Positions 623-5,849 of a stretch of 5,849 nucleotides of DNA are shown one piece after another; the first letter of the stretch is position 1, and each line of letters begins with the position of its first letter. Position numbers and translations under genes: made by a program. The stretch comes from a virus (lineage: Duplodnaviria; Heunggongvirae; Uroviricota; Caudoviricetes), in the IMG/VR virus record IMGVR_UViG_2541047926_000003, positions 1-5,849 of that record. The stretch is one strand, 5' to 3'. Under the pieces are notes generated by a model. The model was not told the DNA's origin, made no database searches, and worked only from the letters and a program-made list of their open reading frames with translations.

Positions 623-797
623 TGCATAATACTCTTGGTTGGTTCACGTGCGATATGTGGCATCCTTTTCAGAATCGATGCGTACTCCACTACGGTTTTG
701 CCATAAAAACCTCAGGATTTTTTTGTTAGACAAATCGATAGTAAACGTTCAAATTTACAAGATATTAGCAACAAAATAGCCTCTACAAGGAATCAAT

Positions 798-1346
798 ATG
801 TTTGATTTTACTCATTTTGAAGAGTTGACTTTAGCATCCCATCAACCCGATAGAATAATGACTATAGTTCGGTCCCAAGATGACATTGGTATCTATCTCC
901 GCACTCACCTTTTGATTGAACAAATCTTGGAAGCTTGGATTATCTGTGCCTCTGGTAACAGGGATTTCTTCAGCGGTTTTGGCGAAAATATCAACATGGA
1001 TTTTGCCATTAAAGCTCAGCTTGCGATGAACTATGGGATGAGCTCAGAGCTAAACAAATTTATTCGAAGGTTCAACAACTTCAGAAACAAACGTTCACAT
1101 CAAATTAACAACTCTGACATCACTAACAGTGAGATTGACTCCTTAACAAGTCTAATGGAGCACGGTTACCCTGATAGCTTGACCCCCATTAGAGATTTTA
1201 AGCTTGGGGTTTACGGAGCAGAAACTAGGGTTGTAAGTTTCACGGGATCCTCTACAAGCTTACGCGATAAGCTCATTATGTTATTCGCTATGTTTTCCAT
1301 GAGGGTACATTACGAAGCAAAATGCTTAAGCACGCCACAGAGCTAG
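798..1346 (+). CDS. Hypothetical protein (cargo gene A), 182 aa, with an R-N-x3-H motif suggestive of a HEPN-type RNase
   Basis: ATG at 798 with AAGGA (787-791) 6 nt upstream; TAG at 1344-1346. AT-rich codon usage unlike the flanking phage genes. Motif R96-N-K-R-S-H101 (nt 1083-1100) follows a predicted helix (ELNKFIRRFNNF). No family recognised from memory. Confidence 0.6.
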   Translation: MFDFTHFEELTLASHQPDRIMTIVRSQDDIGIYLRTHLLIEQILEAWIICASGNRDFFSGFGENINMDFAIKAQLAMNYGMSSELNKFIRRFNNFRNKRSHQINNSDITNSEIDSLTSLMEHGYPDSLTPIRDFKLGVYGAETRVVSFTGSSTSLRDKLIMLFAMFSMRVHYEAKCLSTPQS

Positions 1347-1424
1347 GCTCTACTTTGATGCTCTAATAACATTCGATTATTTGCATTTCCTGTTGCATTA
1401 GCGACCTGCCATTGAGGAGTAAAA

Positions 1425-1985
1425 ATGATCCATACGGTACATTTTTTGACAGATGTTACAGTTGCCTCTGTAACTAATCTGATGGATGTCTGCTTAAAAG
1501 CAGTTTCAAATACTAATCAACCAGCAACAGAAATTAAGCTCTATATTTCCAGCAAAGGTGGAGATACAGTTTCAGGCTTTACTGCTTACAATTTTTTAAA
1601 GTCACTTGGTGTAAAGGTTACTACGCATAACCTCAGTAATGTTGAATCAATCGCAAACGTGATCTATATGGCTGGAGAAGTGCGAACTGCCAACCCACTT
1701 TCTCGCTTCCTTCTTCACCCACTGCATTGGGGGTTCGCCGCACCCAGCGCAGATCACCTACGATTGAGAGAATGGGCTTCATGCCTCGATGACGATCTAA
1801 ATCGATTTATTCAAATCATGGATATTGAAACAAAAAAGAAAAATCCAAGTGAGATTGCTGATTGGAAGGATTTGATCACTTCGGCAACCATCCTTCATCC
1901 CGGAAGGGCCTCCGAGTTGGGAATTGTTCATCAAGTCGAGGCTGCAACCATACCCACGGAATCGATCCGCTGGTGGGTACTTTAA
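1425..1985 (+). CDS. ClpP-like (S14/ClpP-fold) serine protease homologue (cargo gene B), 186 aa, N-terminally truncated relative to canonical ClpP
   Basis: ATG at 1425 with GAGGAG (1414-1419) 5 nt upstream; TAA at 1983-1985. Blocks align, from memory, with E. coli ClpP: LYISSKGGDTVSGFTAY vs LYINSPGGVITAGMSIY; THNLSNVESIANVIYMAG vs TICMGQAASMGAFLLTAG; SRFLLHPL vs SRVMIHQP. Candidate triad Ser75 (nt 1647-1649), His98 (1716-1718), Asp149 (1869-1871) has spacings 23 and 51, close to ClpP Ser97/His122/Asp171 (25 and 49). Confidence 0.75.
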   Translation: MIHTVHFLTDVTVASVTNLMDVCLKAVSNTNQPATEIKLYISSKGGDTVSGFTAYNFLKSLGVKVTTHNLSNVESIANVIYMAGEVRTANPLSRFLLHPLHWGFAAPSADHLRLREWASCLDDDLNRFIQIMDIETKKKNPSEIADWKDLITSATILHPGRASELGIVHQVEAATIPTESIRWWVL

Positions 1986-2006
1986 AATCATAATATTCAC
2001 CATAAT

Positions 2007-2034
2007 GCGGGCTTAGAAGCCCGCTCTTTTTTTC
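2007..2034 (+). terminator. Rho-independent terminator ending the + strand cargo transcript
   Basis: GCGGGCTT-AGAAGCCCGC hairpin (2007-2024) followed by TCTTTTTTTC (2025-2034), 22 nt after the gene B stop. The hairpin overlaps the last codons of the convergent Rz1 gene. Confidence 0.6.
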
Positions 2035-2270
2035 TCAGCCTGCCTGATATCAGCCTTATCCCGATTGCACTGGCCAAGTGCCGATAGCAGACTGACATTT
2101 AAATTAAGACTATTACCCCATGTCATATTATCCGGAATGTCAGGATAAGGCGTTTCAGCCGTCAGGCTTGCTGGCAACGGTACCGCCGGAATAGGCACGT
2201 AAACTGTTCGCGTACTTCCGCAACCGGTCAGCAGCGGCAGCAGGCACAGGACGTGAAGCACAATCATCAT
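2013..2270 (-). CDS. Rz1: o-spanin (Rz1-like outer-membrane lipoprotein), overlapped out of frame with Rz
   Basis: Inside the 141-aa track ORF 2013..2438, the segment from ATG-ATG at 2270-2265 reads MMIVLHVLCLLPLLTGCGSTRTVYVPIPAVPLPASLTAETPYPDIP...: hydrophobic signal, lipobox LLTGC, proline-rich mature region. Starts inside Rz in another frame and extends about 140 nt past the Rz stop. Exact start uncertain; an in-frame TTG at 2276-2274 is also possible. Confidence 0.55.
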   Translation of the reverse strand: MMIVLHVLCLLPLLTGCGSTRTVYVPIPAVPLPASLTAETPYPDIPDNMTWGNSLNLNVSLLSALGQCNRDKADIRQAEKKRAGF

Positions 2271-2547
2271 CCGCAACAGCCACTTTGATATCTTCCTGGG
2301 TTCTCTGTGACTCCAGTGTGATCTGCTGTTTTGCATGCTGGTTAGCCTCCAGAACTGTATTGACGATTTGCAGTGATTGCAGGACGTTATTGGTAATGGC
2401 AGTTGCTGATTCAGCATTTCGTACAGCCTCATCAGCACGTTTCTTTTCGTACTGATATTTGCTGTAGTAGTGGTTGGCAGACCAGATGAAAGAACCGATG
2501 ACAGTAAAGAAGAATGCAGCGATAACCAGCTTATAGCTCAACTTCAT
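2155..2547 (-). CDS. Rz: i-spanin (Rz-like inner-membrane spanin component)
   Basis: 130-aa ORF. N-terminal transmembrane segment (KLVIAAFFFTVIGSFIW), then a charged, helical-looking periplasmic region. Start ATG 2547-2545 overlaps the endolysin 3' end by 17 nt. Position right after holin and endolysin is the canonical lysis-cassette order. Confidence 0.7.
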   Translation of the reverse strand: MKLSYKLVIAAFFFTVIGSFIWSANHYYSKYQYEKKRADEAVRNAESATAITNNVLQSLQIVNTVLEANQHAKQQITLESQRTQEDIKVAVADDDCASRPVPAAAADRLRKYANSLRAYSGGTVASKPDG

Positions 2548-3007
2548 TTACCACCCCACCAGCCTCTTTAAACCGGGAAATCAGGTCACTGATTTTATGT
2601 TCATACTGACCATAACCTGCACCAGGTAACGACGCCCAGATATTGCTGCAACGATCGATAGCCTGACGGATATCACCGCGATCAATCATCGGTAAAGCGC
2701 CACGCTCTTTAATCTGCTGCAATGCCACAGCGTCTTGGCTTTTCGGAGAGAAGTCTTTCAGGCCAAGCTGCTTACGATAGGAATCCCACCAACGGGAAAG
2801 AAGCTGGTAGCGCCCGGCTGCTGTTGATTTGAGTTTTGGGTTTAGCGTGACAAGTTTGCGAGGGTGATCGGAGTAATCAGTAAATAGCTCTCCGCCTACA
2901 ATGACGTCATAACCATGATTTCTGGTTTTCTGCCGTCCGTTATCCGTTCCTTCTGACCATGCCACCATATCGAGGAAAGCCTTACGCTGAGGATTAAGAT
3001 TTTGCAT
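2531..3007 (-). CDS. R: Endolysin, lambda R-type lytic transglycosylase
   Basis: 158 aa, near-identical over most of its length to my memory of lambda R (…QRKAFLDM.AWSEGTDNGRQKTRNHGYDVIVGGELFTDYSDHPRKLVTLNPKLKST…), including the catalytic Glu in WSEGT. ATG at 3007-3005 overlaps the holin 3' end. Confidence 0.9.
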   Translation of the reverse strand: MQNLNPQRKAFLDMVAWSEGTDNGRQKTRNHGYDVIVGGELFTDYSDHPRKLVTLNPKLKSTAAGRYQLLSRWWDSYRKQLGLKDFSPKSQDAVALQQIKERGALPMIDRGDIRQAIDRCSNIWASLPGAGYGQYEHKISDLISRFKEAGGVVNEVEL

Positions 3008-3299
3008 TTTTCACCCCTGTCAGTCGTTCCCAGAAGTACGTCAGTGCAACCGAACCCATCGCACCACTAATCCCCGCTGTCGCGAGAATCATGTAAATAC
3101 TGAATCCACTTTCGATGCTGATCAGGCCACCAATAACACCGGTGAATCCTGATACCACTATCTGAGCCAGAGCATTTATCCAACTCCACGTTGCTTTACT
3201 CTGCTTCACATCTATCAGGTAGCGGACCAGACCGCCCCAACCTGCGATGATCAGCAAAACGAGCCAGAACGCTCCGGCAAGGCTCTCTTTTTCGTGCAT
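2994..3299 (-). CDS. Holin (about three predicted transmembrane segments)
   Basis: Track ORF 2994..3311 starts at a TTG (3311-3309); the first ATG is at 3299-3297 (MHEKESLAGAFWLVLLIIAGWGG…). Three hydrophobic stretches and a charged C-terminus (ERLTGVKNAKS). Lies directly upstream of and overlapping the endolysin gene. Start codon choice unresolved, and no clear SD before either candidate. Confidence 0.7.
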   Translation of the reverse strand: MHEKESLAGAFWLVLLIIAGWGGLVRYLIDVKQSKATWSWINALAQIVVSGFTGVIGGLISIESGFSIYMILATAGISGAMGSVALTYFWERLTGVKNAKS

Positions 3300-3413
3300 A
3301 TGAATAGCCAATGTTTCGCCGCCGACAAAAGGCCGGGACGTTAAATGTCAGAAATCAGGCTCACGGGGTAATTTAACGACAAAGCACGGAGTTGATGCTC
3401 CCCGCAAGCCTGG

Positions 3414-3439
3414 AATAAAAAAGCCAGCATGTAGCTGGC
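3414..3439 (-). terminator. tR'-like intrinsic terminator of the short late leader transcript (minus strand)
   Basis: Minus strand reads GCCAGC-TACAT-GCTGGC followed by TTTTTTATT (stem 3439-3423, T-run 3422-3414). Located about 180 nt downstream of the Q stop and about 100 nt upstream of the holin, matching the lambda pR'-6S RNA-tR' layout. Stem is only 6 bp. Confidence 0.4.
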
Positions 3440-3561
3440 AACAGAGGGTTAAGCAATATCAACTCAACAGCTGAAGACACCCTGGCTGGGGTAGGTTGGA
3501 AGGCTACTCACCGTCCAGAAACAGAAAAGCCCAAAGTTTTAAACCTCGGGCTTGAATTTGG

Positions 3562-3590
3562 ATTACTGCCAGTGCGTACAACATTGGCAA
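3562..3590 (-). promoter_or_regulatory. Candidate late promoter (pR'-like), where a Q antiterminator would be expected to act
   Basis: Minus strand TTGCCA (3590-3585), 17-nt spacer, AGTAAT (3567-3562), just downstream of the Q stop codon. Hexamers are imperfect; assignment rests mainly on position. Confidence 0.3.
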
Positions 3591-3620
3591 AATATCAGAT
3601 TTACACGAAATATATGCTTT

Positions 3621-4310
3621 TTAATCCAGTTTTGCAATACTTTGCTGTGAAAATGTCGTCTTTTGTTTTGAACGTGTTTTCGTTAAAAGCAATAAAGCTT
3701 GGCTATCAAGCTGTAGAAAAATGTGCTTCATTGCAACCCAGCGTTCAGTAAATGTCTCAGACCAGTTTTTTGATGTCACTCCCACCAGTGATGCCAGCTC
3801 CTGGTATTCATAGGTCTTACGCCCTGCCAGCTCGTTCTTCACATCCTGTGCCGCCAGCCAGATCAACTTCTTTAAGCGTTCCAGTGTCTTACTGGCAATT
3901 TTTCTTGTACCTAACAGAGCCTTAAACTCGTTCCATGCCCACTGCGTTACGGCAACCTGATGCTCCCAGCGAACACTTTCGCTGTAACTCCACAGCAACC
4001 ACGCTTTCTGGTGTTCTTCGAGAGACAGAACCGCGCGGCGCCATGAAGATGTTGAGAACTCAACCTGGCTGACCAGTGCAATGGATGAACCTTTTGCGTA
4101 CGACTGCTTACCGGAAATCGGCGGATTATCCAGCGTAATCATCCTGCCAGTTACCTCATCCAGAATGCGCGGCTTCTTTCGTTTGTATGTACCAGTATCA
4201 AATTGAGCATGCTCCAGCCAGGCTTCAAGCTGGCCTTTCGTTACTCCGCTCAAATCAGCGGTAGCCACCATGAGTTGCTCGCGAACATACTGTAAATATT
4301 GGATATTCAT
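3621..4310 (-). CDS. Putative late antiterminator (Q-like protein)
   Basis: 229-aa ORF, ATG at 4310-4308 with GAAAGGAG 7 nt upstream. Lies between the rusA-ylcG block and the late promoter and lysis cassette, the position Q occupies in lambdoid phages. No similarity to lambda Q recalled; the family assignment is positional and needs a profile search. Confidence 0.55.
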   Translation of the reverse strand: MNIQYLQYVREQLMVATADLSGVTKGQLEAWLEHAQFDTGTYKRKKPRILDEVTGRMITLDNPPISGKQSYAKGSSIALVSQVEFSTSSWRRAVLSLEEHQKAWLLWSYSESVRWEHQVAVTQWAWNEFKALLGTRKIASKTLERLKKLIWLAAQDVKNELAGRKTYEYQELASLVGVTSKNWSETFTERWVAMKHIFLQLDSQALLLLTKTRSKQKTTFSQQSIAKLD

Positions 4311-4447
4311 GCGGCAGCTCCTTTCAGTGTTTTGGCGTAATTCTTCAGTATTCGGTAATCGGTCAAAACAGAACCGGGAAAACGATATAAGCGCAGGCGC
4401 ACCCAGCGGCGGCGAAGACGTTCTGCCATATAAGACTCAAACATCAT
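4307..4447 (-). CDS. ylcG: YlcG-like small protein (46 aa)
   Basis: Absent from the ORF track (too short). Minus-strand ATG-ATG at 4447-4442, stop TGA at 4309-4307. Translation [46 protein letters not shown]. Start overlaps the rusA stop (ATGA) and stop overlaps the Q start (ATGA). Same size and rusA-ylcG-Q position as DLP12 ylcG. Confidence 0.6.
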
Positions 4448-4806
4448 TCATCTCCCAGTTCGGTGATGGTCAGCTCCAGCTTCCCACCTTTGGTAACGGG
4501 CATCTTCACAACGCGATAATCAACGACCTGAGCATCATCCAACCAGAAACCTGCTTTGGTGAGTGCGTCAAAAGCGGCCTTTTGTAGATTATCCAGGTCA
4601 CGGCGACGGCGATCCGGCATGTGACACTCAATGCGGATTTTCACTGGCATAGCCAGGCCGATATCCAGCATTGCGTTTTTAATGATTTGAGCGACGTTAT
4701 CGCGGTATGCCTGTCCCTCTGCGCTGACGTGCGTGCGCCCGCGATTATGCCGGTAGTAGCGGTTATTGCTCGGCGGCCAGGGTAGTGTGATGTGGTAAGT
4801 ATTCAC
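4444..4806 (-). CDS. rusA: Crossover junction endodeoxyribonuclease RusA (Holliday junction resolvase)
   Basis: From the GTG at 4806-4804 the product (V/M)[37 protein letters not shown]…[20 protein letters not shown] is 120 aa and matches my memory of E. coli RusA nearly residue for residue. The track ORF (4444..4869, 141 aa) is an upstream in-frame extension. GTG start overlaps the ybcO stop (GTGA). Confidence 0.9.
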
Positions 4807-5093
4807 GCCTTGATTACCCCCTCTTTCAGCCAGATAACCTGCGTTCTCGCCATACCTTCCAGCGCGCATTCTTTTGCGTACTCAGCATCGACAAAATGCG
4901 TGCGGCGGTCGATCTCATCGTGACAGGCAGAACATGCAATGGTGGCAATCAGGTCTGGCGGTTTGGTACCGGTGCCACACAATCCAGCCAGCCGGATATG
5001 TGCCAGTACAGACGTTTCAGAATTACCATTACATACGCCAGGGATTCTTACCTGGCATTCCCGACCACGCGCTGCTTTTCTCAAATCAGCCAT
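4803..5093 (-). CDS. ybcO: YbcO-like protein (DUF1364-type; putative nuclease)
   Basis: From ATG at 5093-5091 (AAGGAGG 4 nt upstream) the product [62 protein letters not shown]… is 96 aa, with Cys/His clusters. The track ORF starts at an upstream TTG (109 aa). Size, sequence and ninE-ybcO-rusA synteny match DLP12 ybcO as I recall it. Confidence 0.8.
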
Positions 5094-5256
5094 GATTCCT
5101 CCTTGCTGCCAGTCGCAACCATTTTTTATCAACCAGGCTGGCGGTATACCCTAGCAGTGTTGGTATTTCGGATGGCTTCAGCTCAGGCTTACGCTTACGA
5201 CGATTTGGTACTCTGTAGATGTGTCCGTTCATGACCCGAATAAGCGGTGTAGTCAT
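5086..5256 (-). CDS. ninE: NinE-like protein
   Basis: From ATG at 5256-5254 (AGGAGG 4 nt upstream) the product [56 protein letters not shown] is 56 aa; the basic KPxxKP…WLR pattern resembles lambda NinE as remembered. The track ORF (77 aa) is an upstream extension. Start overlaps the upstream gene's stop (TAATG). Confidence 0.65.
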   Translation of the reverse strand: MTTPLIRVMNGHIYRVPNRRKRKPELKPSEIPTLLGYTASLVDKKWLRLAARRNHG

Positions 5257-5711
5257 TACGCCTCCTGCTTGTCGCGCAGCAGCTGGAACTCGCAGCTCTG
5301 TGGAATAGTCAGGTGGCAACCAATATTCATCGCCCAGGCTTCAACCTTACACAGGAAGACATACATCTCTCCGGTATCAAGATCGGAGGTATGGCGTAAC
5401 GACTGGATAGTGGTGATATCACCGGTTACGACATCAACCAGGTCTTTGGTTTCATAACCGAGATATGTGTGTTTGAGAGCATCTTTTACCCAAGCTGGAG
5501 TGGCGAACGTTTTACCCCTGCTGATGAGGTATTCACTGATTTCGCTGTACCACATGTGGCTGAGTGCATTCTGGGAAAGACTGCGTCTCTCGCGCCACGG
5601 TTTAAGCATCATGCGAAAGCATTTTCCGTCCTCCAGATAAGGCTGGATCTGCTGACCGATAGCGGTGAAGTTACCGCGATGCAATTTGATGCCGTCTTGT
5701 GGGAGGTTCAC
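5256..5711 (-). CDS. ybcN: NinB/Orf-family protein (YbcN-like), 151 aa
   Basis: GTG start at 5711-5709 with GGAGGTG upstream and an in-frame TGA at 5717-5715 fixing the 5' limit. Contains [15 protein letters not shown], resembling the RNRSLDQNRKLW motif I recall in lambda NinB/Orf. Size and position upstream of ninE match DLP12 ybcN. Confidence 0.7.
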
Positions 5712-5849
5712 GCTTCACCTCCGCAGAGGTCAAACGCTGGATGCAAAAAATCGCAGGTGCATCTCTGCATCTGTGAAGGGAGAAGAGAGTTTGGATTGTA
5801 TGTGCGCATAAACGTCCCCGTTTAGCGCAGAAGTCACCGGAGTTGTTCA

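What the first reader, a model, noticed from the sequence alone, without database searches (positions are those of the whole stretch)
1425..1985. Stand-alone ClpP-fold protease with intact catalytic triad but no N-terminal axial-gate region
Seen: protein B aligns block by block with ClpP (from memory), with Ser75/His98/Asp149 at ClpP-like spacing. It begins about 22 residues later than mature ClpP, at the segment matching ClpP's VIFLTGQ. Established: the ClpP N-terminal residues form the axial pore loops that gate the chamber and dock Clp ATPases; deleting them or opening the gate with ADEP allows unregulated degradation. Inference: B could be an ATPase-independent, constitutively open protease, a plausible toxic effector or processing enzyme; no ClpX/ClpA-like ATPase is encoded nearby.
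Basis: partly seen in the sequence, partly recalled or inferred. Interest (0 to 1): 0.8.

Follow-up and report, generated by a model that had tools for sequence, protein, structure and literature searches.

The report
Prophage cargo gene: short ClpP protease
This is a real but non-canonical ClpP-family protease gene carried as a stand-alone cargo gene by an E. coli prophage; it belongs to a short ClpP type whose structure was solved in 2026, it lacks the usual catalytic aspartate, and what it does for the prophage is untested.

Summary
ORF 1425-1985 (186 aa, "B") is a genuine ClpP-fold protein. Its closest solved relative is Pseudomonas plecoglossicida ClpP1 (PDB 9UXT): E=1.6e-32 over the full length, TM 0.90 to the AlphaFold2 model of B.

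The fold is ClpP. Ser75 and His98 are the catalytic pair. About 23 N-terminal residues (the axial loops) are missing. No Clp ATPase lies nearby.

Asp149 is neither conserved nor homologous to the ClpP aspartate, which aligns to Ala154 (the proline of PpClpP1's Ser-His-Pro).

The "constitutively open, toxic protease" reading is weakened by published PpClpP1 data. That protein has a 42.7 Å pore but 13-fold lower peptidase activity than canonical ClpP2. Alone it does not degrade casein or GFP-ssrA, and it does not bind ClpX. It forms a more active hybrid 14-mer with canonical ClpP.

New here:
- The enterobacterial clade is a single-gene prophage moron on the opposite strand, at the lysis/terminase junction, between tail genes, or coupled to the Mnt repressor gene in P22-like phages.
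- The neighbour A (798-1346) is an independent HepS-like HEPN protein, not a partner.

Best reading: a lysogen-expressed accessory ClpP subunit that retunes host ClpP. Its function is untested.

The parts
1425..1985 (+). B: 186-aa short ClpP-family protease (PpClpP1-type), a stand-alone prophage moron
   Evidence: ORF. Pfam CLP_protease 2.1e-12. PDB 9uxt 1.6e-32. AF2 pLDDT 89, TM 0.90 to 9uxt_A. 58 homologous clusters.
1414..1419 (+). GAGGAG ribosome-binding site, 5 nt before the ATG; an in-frame TGA at 1413 excludes a longer N-terminus
1647..1649 (+). Codon of Ser75, the nucleophile (= ClpP Ser97, PpClpP1 Ser73)
   Evidence: Invariant in A1. Present in 148 of 150 representatives. Alignments. 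S73A abolishes PpClpP1 activity.
1716..1718 (+). Codon of His98 (= ClpP His122, PpClpP1 His96)
   Evidence: Invariant. Present in 146 of 150 representatives. H96A abolishes PpClpP1 activity.
1884..1886 (+). Codon of Ala154, the position homologous to the ClpP catalytic Asp171 and to the Pro of PpClpP1's Ser-His-Pro; not acidic
   Evidence: hhalign, MAFFT, phmmer alignment to 9uxt. A/S/T in the clade.
1869..1871 (+).
2007..2034 (+). GC-rich hairpin plus T-run, an intrinsic-terminator-like site just after B, overlapping the end of the convergent Rz1/LysC gene
   Evidence: sequence
1366..1424 (+). 59-nt leader that travels with B in a prophage lacking A (module boundary at about 1366)
   Evidence: blastn against L029 (B 96% identical, no A) starts at window 1366
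798..1346 (+). A: 182-aa HepS-like HEPN protein (RNKRSH, aa 96-101); an independent neighbouring moron, not a conserved partner of B
   Evidence: Invariant R96/N97/H101. Profile against HepS 9oij E=4.9e-6. AF2 model best matches HepS. Found without B.
640..2006 (+). Low-GC (0.41) two-gene plus-strand cargo island between HNH/terminase (left, GC 0.585) and Rz/Rz1 (right, GC 0.49), both on the minus strand
   Evidence: Present in 15 of 5426 complete E. coli genomes.

Best explanation
B is a functional member of the short ClpP clade typified by P. plecoglossicida ClpP1 (PDB 9UXT). It has a ClpP fold with a conserved Ser75-His98 catalytic pair, no canonical aspartate (Ala154 in its place), no N-terminal axial loops and a largely polar surface where Clp ATPases normally dock.

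It is a single-gene, horizontally acquired prophage accessory gene (a moron). It is not a head protease and not half of a two-gene system with its neighbour A.

Inferred mechanism, by analogy with PpClpP1: it assembles into ClpP-like heptameric rings with a wide pore. On its own it is only a weak peptidase that cannot take folded or casein-like substrates and cannot recruit ClpX or ClpA. In the lysogen it stacks onto a host ClpP ring to form a hybrid tetradecamer, changing the output of host ClpXP/ClpAP.

The benefit to the prophage would be lysogen maintenance, host fitness, or interference with superinfecting phages that depend on or are controlled by ClpXP. This benefit is inferred, not shown.

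Shown here: identity, active-site make-up, truncation, stand-alone moron architecture, and independence from A. Inferred: oligomeric state, hybrid formation with E. coli ClpP, expression in the lysogen, and biological role.

The confidence of 0.55 is for the whole statement. Roughly: identity and stand-alone moron status 0.9, expression in the lysogen 0.65, action through a hybrid with host ClpP 0.35.
For: Identity:
- Pfam, PDB and fold matches.

Active site:
- Ser and His are invariant; the Asp position is Ala/Ser/Thr.

Truncation:
-.

Docking pocket:
- Mostly polar.

Homologue biochemistry (PMC12900304):
- Homo-14-mer with a 42.7 Å pore. Ser and His are essential. Low peptidase activity. No casein or GFP-ssrA degradation alone. 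No ClpX or ADEP binding.
- Forms a stable hetero-14-mer with canonical ClpP2 that binds ClpX and is more active.

Moron architecture:
- Low GC, opposite strand, terminator-like site.
- Solo at the same Rz1/terminase slot in Klebsiella prophages.
- Solo between baseplate and tail genes.
- In 42 of 80 IMG/VR loci an Mnt-like repressor gene lies directly upstream; in the loci where ORFs were called, B's start overlaps that gene's stop codon by 1 nt. P22's prophage-expressed sieA lies between genes 16 and 9, next to orf59a and mnt; equating the B position with that slot is inference.
- 18 of 80 loci have Rz/Rz1 convergent downstream.

Independence from A:
-.

Not a head protease:
- The prophage has its own HK97 prohead protease.
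Against: - No experiment on B or any phage-borne member was found.
- B is only 36% identical to PpClpP1, so the biochemistry may not transfer.
- The Pseudomonas clade is chromosomal, beside stress-protein genes, and not phage-borne, so its physiological role may differ.
- Hybrid formation with E. coli ClpP is untested.
- No convincing sigma-70 promoter was found upstream of A or B, so expression in the lysogen is inferred from context only.
- PADLOC has no model for it.
Confidence: 0.55

Rival explanations
1. One reading: with the axial gate deleted, B is a constitutively open, ATPase-independent protease that degrades proteins without regulation and acts as a toxic effector or processing enzyme.
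For: The gate-forming N-terminus is absent. The solved homologue has a dilated 42.7 Å pore. Ser and His are conserved.
Against: - PpClpP1 alone does not degrade FITC-casein or GFP-ssrA. It has 13-fold lower peptidase activity than ClpP2 and was over-expressed in E. coli.
- The canonical Asp is missing.
- The gene is carried alone, with no conserved neighbour, in many prophage backgrounds. It is coupled to the lysogeny repressor gene mnt.
Confidence: 0.08
2. B is a self-sufficient anti-phage or superinfection-exclusion factor. A wide-pore peptidase in the lysogen destroys unfolded or extended proteins of incoming phages (for example ejection proteins), or cleaves a specific phage protein, without needing host ClpP.
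For: - It occupies slots typical of prophage defence cargo: the lysis/terminase junction next to a HepS-like Abi gene, and just downstream of mnt in P22-like phages, near where P22 carries sieA.
- The neighbouring slot is hypervariable and includes a YafO-like toxin.
- Catalytic residues are strongly conserved.
Against: - No experimental support.
- No PADLOC model matches.
- The homologue is a poor protease on its own.
- The related Pseudomonas clade is a chromosomal gene with growth and motility phenotypes, which points to a general proteostasis role.
Confidence: 0.2
3. A and B form a two-gene system: a HEPN RNase toxin or effector with a ClpP-like protease that activates or neutralises it.
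For: In this prophage lineage they are adjacent on the same strand, 78 nt apart, inside one low-GC island ending in a single terminator-like site. An A homologue and a B homologue also occur on one 44.8-kb phage contig.
Against: - Adjacency is confined to one E. coli lineage (L001, L023-L028).
- B at 96%, 79% and 69% identity occurs without A.
- A at 90%, 84%, 66%, 57% and 53% identity occurs without an adjacent B.
- On the shared contig the two genes lie more than 12 kb apart in different slots.
- Homology to a B-only prophage starts 59 nt upstream of B.
- HepS works as a single protein.
Confidence: 0.07
4. B is a ClpP-related phage head-maturation (prohead) protease, or a displaced remnant of one.
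For: Best PHROG is phrog_94 'head maturation protease' (1.8e-25). NCBIfam Clp_rel_HeadMat gives 1.4e-13. One phage record annotates a homologue that way.
Against: - The score is below the NCBIfam cut-off, 51 bits against 120.
- The phrog_94 profile is 622 positions long and B matches only positions 81-259 of it.
- B is on the opposite strand, outside the head module, with no scaffold domain.
- The prophage has its own HK97 prohead protease between the portal and capsid genes.
- Homologues sit in the immunity region or among tail genes.
Confidence: 0.03
5. B acts as a dominant-negative or sequestering subunit. It caps or poisons host ClpP rings and so lowers ClpXP/ClpAP activity in the lysogen, regardless of its own catalysis.
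For: It lacks the ATPase-docking features. The homologue forms mixed 14-mers with canonical ClpP. A hybrid would offer only one ATPase-competent face.
Against: Near-universal conservation of Ser and His argues that catalysis is selected. The PpClpP1P2 hybrid is more active, not less.
Confidence: 0.1

Closest known systems
Pseudomonas plecoglossicida ClpP1 (PpClpP1, PDB 9UXT; PLoS Pathog 2026, PMC12900304)
   Same: - Full-length homologue (E=1.6e-32, 36% identity, TM 0.90), about 183-186 aa.
- Same N-terminal truncation and the same conserved Ser/His.
- A non-acidic residue at the ClpP Asp position.
- The motif around the His is conserved (HP-x-HW).
- The residues that form the bortezomib pocket of PpClpP1 are partly conserved: G44/G46, D121/D124, H99/H101, W100/W102 (PpClpP1/B).
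   Different: - Ala154 in place of Pro at the third position.
- B is phage-borne (opposite-strand moron). The Pseudomonas gene is chromosomal, next to KGG stress-protein and DUF6555 genes.
- No biochemistry exists for B.
Canonical ClpP (E. coli ClpP, MEROPS S14, Pfam PF00574)
   Same: Same fold (TM about 0.78). Homologous Ser and His. Handle-region residues partly conserved.
   Different: - Lacks about 23 N-terminal residues, the axial loops.
- Lacks the catalytic Asp.
- The docking pocket is mostly polar.
- Not linked to clpX.
- Only about 17-23% identity.
Accessory ClpP isoforms that work in mixed tetradecamers (Listeria ClpP1/2, Mycobacterium ClpP1P2, P. aeruginosa ClpP2)
   Same: A catalytically atypical or weak isoform that gains function by stacking with a canonical ring. 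Listeria ClpP1 has Asn instead of Asp. The abstract of a 2026 PNAS paper reports that P. aeruginosa ClpP2 modulates ClpXP assembly (abstract only).
   Different: Those isoforms are host chromosomal genes of about full length. B is shorter, is mobile on phages, and its partner would be a ClpP from a different genome (the host).
ClpP-related phage head-maturation proteases (NCBIfam NF045542; PHROG 94)
   Same: ClpP-like fold in a phage genome. Comparable profile scores.
   Different: B is below the family cut-off, outside the head module, on the opposite strand, and without a scaffold or capsid fusion. The prophage has a separate HK97 prohead protease.
Prophage-expressed single-gene morons such as P22 SieA and Gifsy-1 HepS
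   Same: Same kind of genomic slot and architecture. P22 sieA lies between genes 16 and 9, beside orf59a and mnt. HepS is single-gene and prophage-encoded.
   Different: No sequence or fold relationship to B. A defence phenotype for B has not been tested.

Membership tests
ClpP / Pfam CLP_protease (MEROPS S14) | Profile match above the curated threshold, and ClpP fold | tested here: met
   PF00574 47.7 bits against a cut-off of 20.2. AF2 model TM 0.73-0.80 to many ClpP structures.
ClpP / Pfam CLP_protease (MEROPS S14) | Catalytic Ser and His at homologous positions | tested here: met
   Ser75 = Ser97 and His98 = His122. Invariant in the family.
ClpP / Pfam CLP_protease (MEROPS S14) | Catalytic Asp (Asp171) completing the triad | tested here: not met
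   Asp171 aligns to Ala154. Asp149 is not conserved. No Asp at this column in 150 representatives.
ClpP / Pfam CLP_protease (MEROPS S14) | N-terminal axial loops that gate the pore and contact the ATPase | tested here: not met
   B Met1 corresponds to about mature ClpP Leu24. An in-frame stop lies 12 nt upstream of the ATG.
ClpP / Pfam CLP_protease (MEROPS S14) | Hydrophobic pocket for the IGF/LGF loops of ClpX/ClpA | tested here: not met
   Y60K, F82S, I90H, F112T, L114N and L189E by MAFFT. The pocket residue list is recalled from memory. The homologue binds neither ClpX nor ADEP.
ClpP / Pfam CLP_protease (MEROPS S14) | Double-heptamer (tetradecamer) assembly | not testable with these tools
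   Only monomer prediction is available. The homologue PpClpP1 is a 14-mer by cryo-EM and AUC.
PpClpP1-type short ClpP | Full-length sequence and structure similarity to 9UXT | tested here: met
   E=1.6e-32, query 3-185 to chain 4-181. TM 0.90, rmsd 1.7 Å.
PpClpP1-type short ClpP | Truncated N-terminus, and Ser-His with a non-acidic third residue | tested here: met
   B has Ala where PpClpP1 has Pro.
PpClpP1-type short ClpP | Forms a hybrid tetradecamer with canonical ClpP; no direct ClpX binding | not testable with these tools
   Shown only for PpClpP1.
ClpP-related phage head-maturation protease (NF045542) | Score above the curated cut-off | tested here: not met
   51.2 bits against a cut-off of 120.
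ClpP-related phage head-maturation protease (NF045542) | Located in the head module (portal-protease-capsid), same strand | tested here: not met
   B is on the opposite strand between Rz1 and HNH/terminase. A separate HK97 prohead protease lies between the portal and capsid genes.
Known anti-phage defence systems (PADLOC-DB v2) | Match to any defence-protein model | tested here: not met
   No hit for A or B at E<=1.
Two-gene HEPN + protease system (A+B) | Conserved co-occurrence and adjacency across lineages | tested here: not met
   Adjacent only in one E. coli lineage. Each gene occurs alone elsewhere.

The most novel reading that the evidence does not exclude
The enterobacterial short-ClpP clade is a previously unrecognised single-gene prophage function. 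A phage-supplied ClpP ring stacks on the host's ClpP and reprograms host ClpXP/ClpAP in the lysogen. It would thereby exclude or cripple superinfecting phages, or stabilise lysogeny. That would be a new mechanistic class of prophage-encoded immunity or host take-over, based on hijacking the host protease core.
Probability: 0.25. Interest if true: 0.7.

Novelty: new member of a known kind. Interest (0 to 1): 0.4.

Why it matters
The protein type is therefore no longer new, and the "open, unregulated protease" idea is already weakened by those data.

What remains open is the biological context found here. A sister clade of this short ClpP is carried as a single cargo gene by many temperate phages of Enterobacterales. 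It sits in slots that usually hold lysogen-expressed exclusion or defence genes, and is often translationally coupled to the Mnt maintenance repressor gene.

If it acts by forming hybrids with host ClpP, it would be an example of a phage retuning the host's central protease from within. It would also be a testable candidate for a new prophage-encoded immunity function.

It also shows that PpClpP1, presented as a drug target, belongs to a large family: 53 clusters (at 50% identity) match at E<=1e-30 and 1753 at E<=1e-10, some of them mobile.

Tried and rejected
- PADLOC scan of A and B: no hit.
- megablast of the cassette against the phage collection: no match. tblastn then found six P22-like phages and other phages with a 52% B homologue.
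- Literature searches for a ClpP-like prophage defence gene, for WP_000582030, for sieA/mnt/Clp and for phage-encoded or truncated ClpP found nothing on the phage-borne clade. A TepA search was uninformative.
- BFVD fold search: only generic viral ClpP-like proteins at <=25% identity, none closer than 9UXT.
- The promoter scan found no convincing sigma-70 promoter upstream of A or B, so no promoter is claimed.
- tRNA and Rfam scans of the window: nothing.
- An A+B two-gene system was considered and rejected on co-occurrence.
- A prohead-protease role was considered and rejected.
- An alternative acidic third residue was considered. E116 and D124 are the best-conserved acidic positions.
- The genome-contig scan returned only 8 loci because the degenerate patterns were narrow. 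The IMG/VR scan was far richer.
Full report
**Setting**

The window is the late-gene region of a lambdoid-type E. coli prophage, read on the minus strand. In order it carries NinB-like (5256-5711), YbcO (4803-5132), RusA (4444-4869), antiterminator Q (3621-4310), holin (2994-3311), a 158-aa lysozyme-position ORF (2531-3007; no Pfam hit, but its counterpart in E. coli LD91-1 is annotated glycoside hydrolase family 24), Rz/Rz1 (2155-2547 and about 2013-2267) and an HNH endonuclease (272-622).

Between Rz1 and HNH lies a low-GC island on the plus strand. Its GC is 0.41, against 0.585 to the left and 0.49 to the right. It holds two genes, A (798-1346) and B (1425-1985). The island is 99-100% identical in 13 and 95-99% identical in 2 of 5426 complete E. 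coli genomes, always chromosomal.

In E. coli LD91-1 the cassette sits in a complete prophage. That prophage has its own HK97-family prohead protease between the portal and major-capsid genes, and no Clp ATPase within 20 kb.

**Checking the observation**

B is a 186-aa ORF. It has a GAGGAG ribosome-binding site 5 nt before the ATG. An in-frame TGA lies 12 nt upstream, so the short N-terminus is not an annotation artefact.

The ClpP relationship is solid:
- Pfam CLP_protease E=2.1e-12, above threshold, matching profile positions 41-178 of 182.
- phmmer against PDB sequences gives one outstanding hit, 9uxt (E=1.6e-32, residues 3-185 against 4-181). About 100 canonical ClpPs follow at E>=1e-6.
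- The AlphaFold2 model (pLDDT 89, pTM 0.86) superposes on 9uxt_A with TM 0.90 and rmsd 1.7 Å. It superposes on canonical ClpPs with TM about 0.73-0.80.

B Val5 aligns with mature E. coli ClpP Val28 (TVHFLT against RVIFLT).

**The catalytic residues**

In a 26-member family alignment Ser75 and His98 are invariant. Asp149 is not: the column reads D/N/S/E/Q/L/A/T/G.

Profile-profile alignment (hhalign) of the family against E. coli ClpP places the ClpP aspartate (Asp171 mature, Asp185 precursor) on B Ala154. An independent MAFFT alignment gives the same result. That column is A/S/T in the enterobacterial clade and Pro in the Pseudomonas clade.

A profile search of 1.84 billion cluster representatives found 53 clusters at E<=1e-30 and 1753 at E<=1e-10. 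Among the best 150:
- Most are 180-199 aa and start within a few residues of B's start.
- Ser is kept in 148 and His in 146.
- The third position is A/G/R/S/E/P/Q.
- The Asp149 column is K/Q/E/D/N/A/S.
- The best-conserved acidic residues are E116 (123 of 150) and D124 (108 of 150) in the handle region.

So "intact triad, Ser75/His98/Asp149" is wrong in its third member. This is a Ser-His enzyme of a distinct short-ClpP clade.

**What is already known about this kind of protein**

9UXT is ClpP1 of Pseudomonas plecoglossicida, published in February 2026 (PMC12900304). The paper reports the following:
- A >15-residue N-terminal truncation and a Ser73-His96-Pro "triad".
- A homotetradecamer by cryo-EM and AUC, with a 42.7 Å axial pore.
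- 13-fold lower peptidase activity than canonical ClpP2.
- Complete loss of activity in S73A and H96A, but about 60% activity retained in the Pro-to-Ala and Pro-to-Asp mutants.
- No binding to ClpX, and no stabilisation by ADEP.
- No degradation of FITC-casein or GFP-ssrA by ClpP1 alone.
- Formation of a stable ClpP1P2 hetero-tetradecamer that binds ClpX through the ClpP2 face and is more active than either homo-oligomer.

One discrepancy: by my count on the phmmer alignment the proline is residue 150, while the paper writes 151. Either way it falls in the column of B Ala154.

B also has polar residues at most positions that form the ATPase/ADEP pocket in E. coli ClpP: Y60K, F82S, I90H, F112T, L114N, L189E. 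The list of pocket residues is from memory.

They argue against the idea that removing the gate yields an unregulated or toxic protease.

**Genomic context of the clade**

This part is new. A and B are not a conserved pair.
- Of 80 IMG/VR viral contigs carrying a B relative (126 found), only the six with a 100%-identical B also carry A.
- A prophage with a 96%-identical B lacks A. Its homology to the window begins at position 1366, 59 nt upstream of B.
- Klebsiella prophages carry a 79% B alone in the same Rz1/terminase slot.
- Erwiniaceae and Pantoea prophages carry 50-70% homologues alone, on the opposite strand, between baseplate and tape-measure genes.
- Conversely, A homologues at 90%, 84%, 66%, 57% and 53% identity sit alone in the lysis/terminase slot. 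More distant ones are phi80 gp52 and a gene of Salmonella phage FSL SP-016.
- On one 44.8-kb phage contig that has both, the two genes are more than 12 kb apart, in different slots.

B is therefore a self-contained module.

**The P22-like context**

In 42 of the 80 viral loci an 80-96-aa gene lies directly upstream of the B homologue. In the loci where ORFs were called, B's start overlaps that gene's stop codon by 1 nt. Representatives of this gene match Pfam Arc, and one also matches Repressor_Mnt, which identifies it as the Mnt maintenance repressor of P22-like phages. Arc lies divergently upstream.

In P22, the prophage-expressed exclusion gene sieA lies between genes 16 and 9, adjacent to orf59a and mnt. 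I infer that the B homologue occupies the equivalent slot.

The gene convergent with B in these phages is hypervariable. Examples are a YafO-like toxin, a P63C-domain protein and a PEGA-like lipoprotein.

Another 18 of the 80 loci have Rz/Rz1 convergent downstream, as in the window.

In the window a terminator-like hairpin with a T-run follows B (2007-2034). No convincing promoter was detected.

This is classical moron architecture. It suggests expression in the lysogen but does not prove it.

**The Pseudomonas clade**

The PpClpP1 clade, by contrast, is chromosomal. It is conserved in length at 183 aa and present in more than 200 clusters. It is flanked by KGG stress-protein and DUF6555 genes, not by phage genes. 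Its deletion slows growth and reduces motility.

**Protein A, noted in passing**

A has invariant R96-N97-x3-H101, a HEPN motif. A family profile hits HepS (PDB 9oij) at E=4.9e-6 across the catalytic helix. The AF2 model (pLDDT 88) has HepS as its best PDB match, TM 0.55-0.59.

HepS is a single-protein, prophage-encoded abortive-infection tRNase triggered by siphovirus tail-tip proteins. A is thus a plausible independent Abi gene stacked next to B in the same hotspot.

**Interpretation**

The best-supported reading is that B is an active Ser-His short ClpP carried as prophage cargo. By analogy with PpClpP1 it should form wide-pore rings with weak autonomous peptidase activity. It most plausibly acts by stacking on a host ClpP ring, changing ClpXP/ClpAP output in the lysogen.

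The identity, active-site composition, truncation, stand-alone status and independence from A are shown. The oligomeric state, hybrid formation with E. coli ClpP, expression in the lysogen and the biological pay-off are inferred.

Rivals:
- A self-sufficient exclusion peptidase. This remains possible.
- A dominant-negative cap on host ClpP. This is less likely, given the Ser/His conservation and the activating effect seen in Pseudomonas.
- An A+B system. Rejected on co-occurrence.
- A prohead protease. Rejected on position, score and the presence of a dedicated HK97 protease.
Disfavoured by the homologue's biochemistry and by the gene's solitary carriage.

**Novelty and score**

As a protein type this is a new member of a family whose first structure and biochemistry appeared in 2026.

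The phage-borne clade and its moron and Mnt-coupled context did not appear in any paper found here. They make a concrete, testable candidate for a prophage function that manipulates the host protease. Interest is moderate at 0.4. It would be about 0.7 if the hybrid/immunity model proved true, to which I give roughly 25% probability.

Noticed in passing
window 798-1346 (+): Protein A is a HepS-like stand-alone HEPN protein. It has RNKRSH at aa 96-101 (nt 1083-1100) and invariant R96/N97/H101. A family profile hits HepS 9oij at E=4.9e-6, and the AF2 model best matches HepS. It has no Pfam or PADLOC family. It is a likely independent abortive-infection RNase.
   Followed up: partly
L012:1172-1786 (phage phi80 gp52) and L011:3986-4531 (Salmonella phage FSL SP-016): Well-known phage phi80 carries a distant (34%) homologue of A between Rz and cos, on the opposite strand, annotated as hypothetical. 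FSL SP-016 has a 37% homologue in a similar slot.
   Followed up: partly
window 1366; L029:4930-5635: A mosaic breakpoint. Homology to a prophage that has B (96% aa identity) but not A starts 59 nt upstream of B's ATG, so a short leader travels with B. Whether it holds a promoter is unknown.
   Followed up: partly
L010:4753-5537 and 41 other IMG/VR loci (e.g. L055-L096): In P22-like phages an Mnt-like ribbon-helix-helix repressor gene lies directly upstream of the B homologue, whose start overlaps that gene's stop codon by 1 nt. This is near where P22 carries sieA/orf59a. An RHH gene followed by a coupled gene also resembles a toxin-antitoxin operon layout.
   Followed up: partly
L074:5586-6002, L071:5317-6384, L057:4790-5221 (minus strand): The gene convergent with the B homologue in P22-like phages is hypervariable: a YafO-family toxin, a P63C-domain protein or a PEGA-like lipoprotein. 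This indicates a cargo or defence hotspot.
   Followed up: no
L103-L108, gene at 6001-6552: The Pseudomonas PpClpP1 clade is chromosomal and conserved next to KGG-repeat stress-protein and DUF6555 genes, which suggests a stress regulon. I found no discussion of gene neighbours in the sections of the PpClpP1 paper I read.
   Followed up: no
B aa 110-127 (window 1752-1805): D110, H111, R113, E116, D124 and R127 are invariant in the enterobacterial clade. E116 and D124 are also kept in 123 and 108 of 150 distant representatives. They lie in the handle helix. Possible roles are ring-ring contacts or a substitute third catalytic residue. The geometry could not be examined.
   Followed up: no
L013-L015, gene at 4001-4717: The Klebsiella homologue is annotated as 238 aa, but the family alignment shows the conserved start (MIHTVHF) 52 codons downstream. 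The database N-terminal extension is probably a start-codon miscall.
   Followed up: partly
window 2100-5849 versus L001: The E. coli LD91-1 prophage lists a different gene set to the right of the lysis genes (a different antiterminator, extra genes). The cassette therefore appears to sit in mosaic prophage backgrounds. Only window 640-2100 was aligned directly.
   Followed up: no
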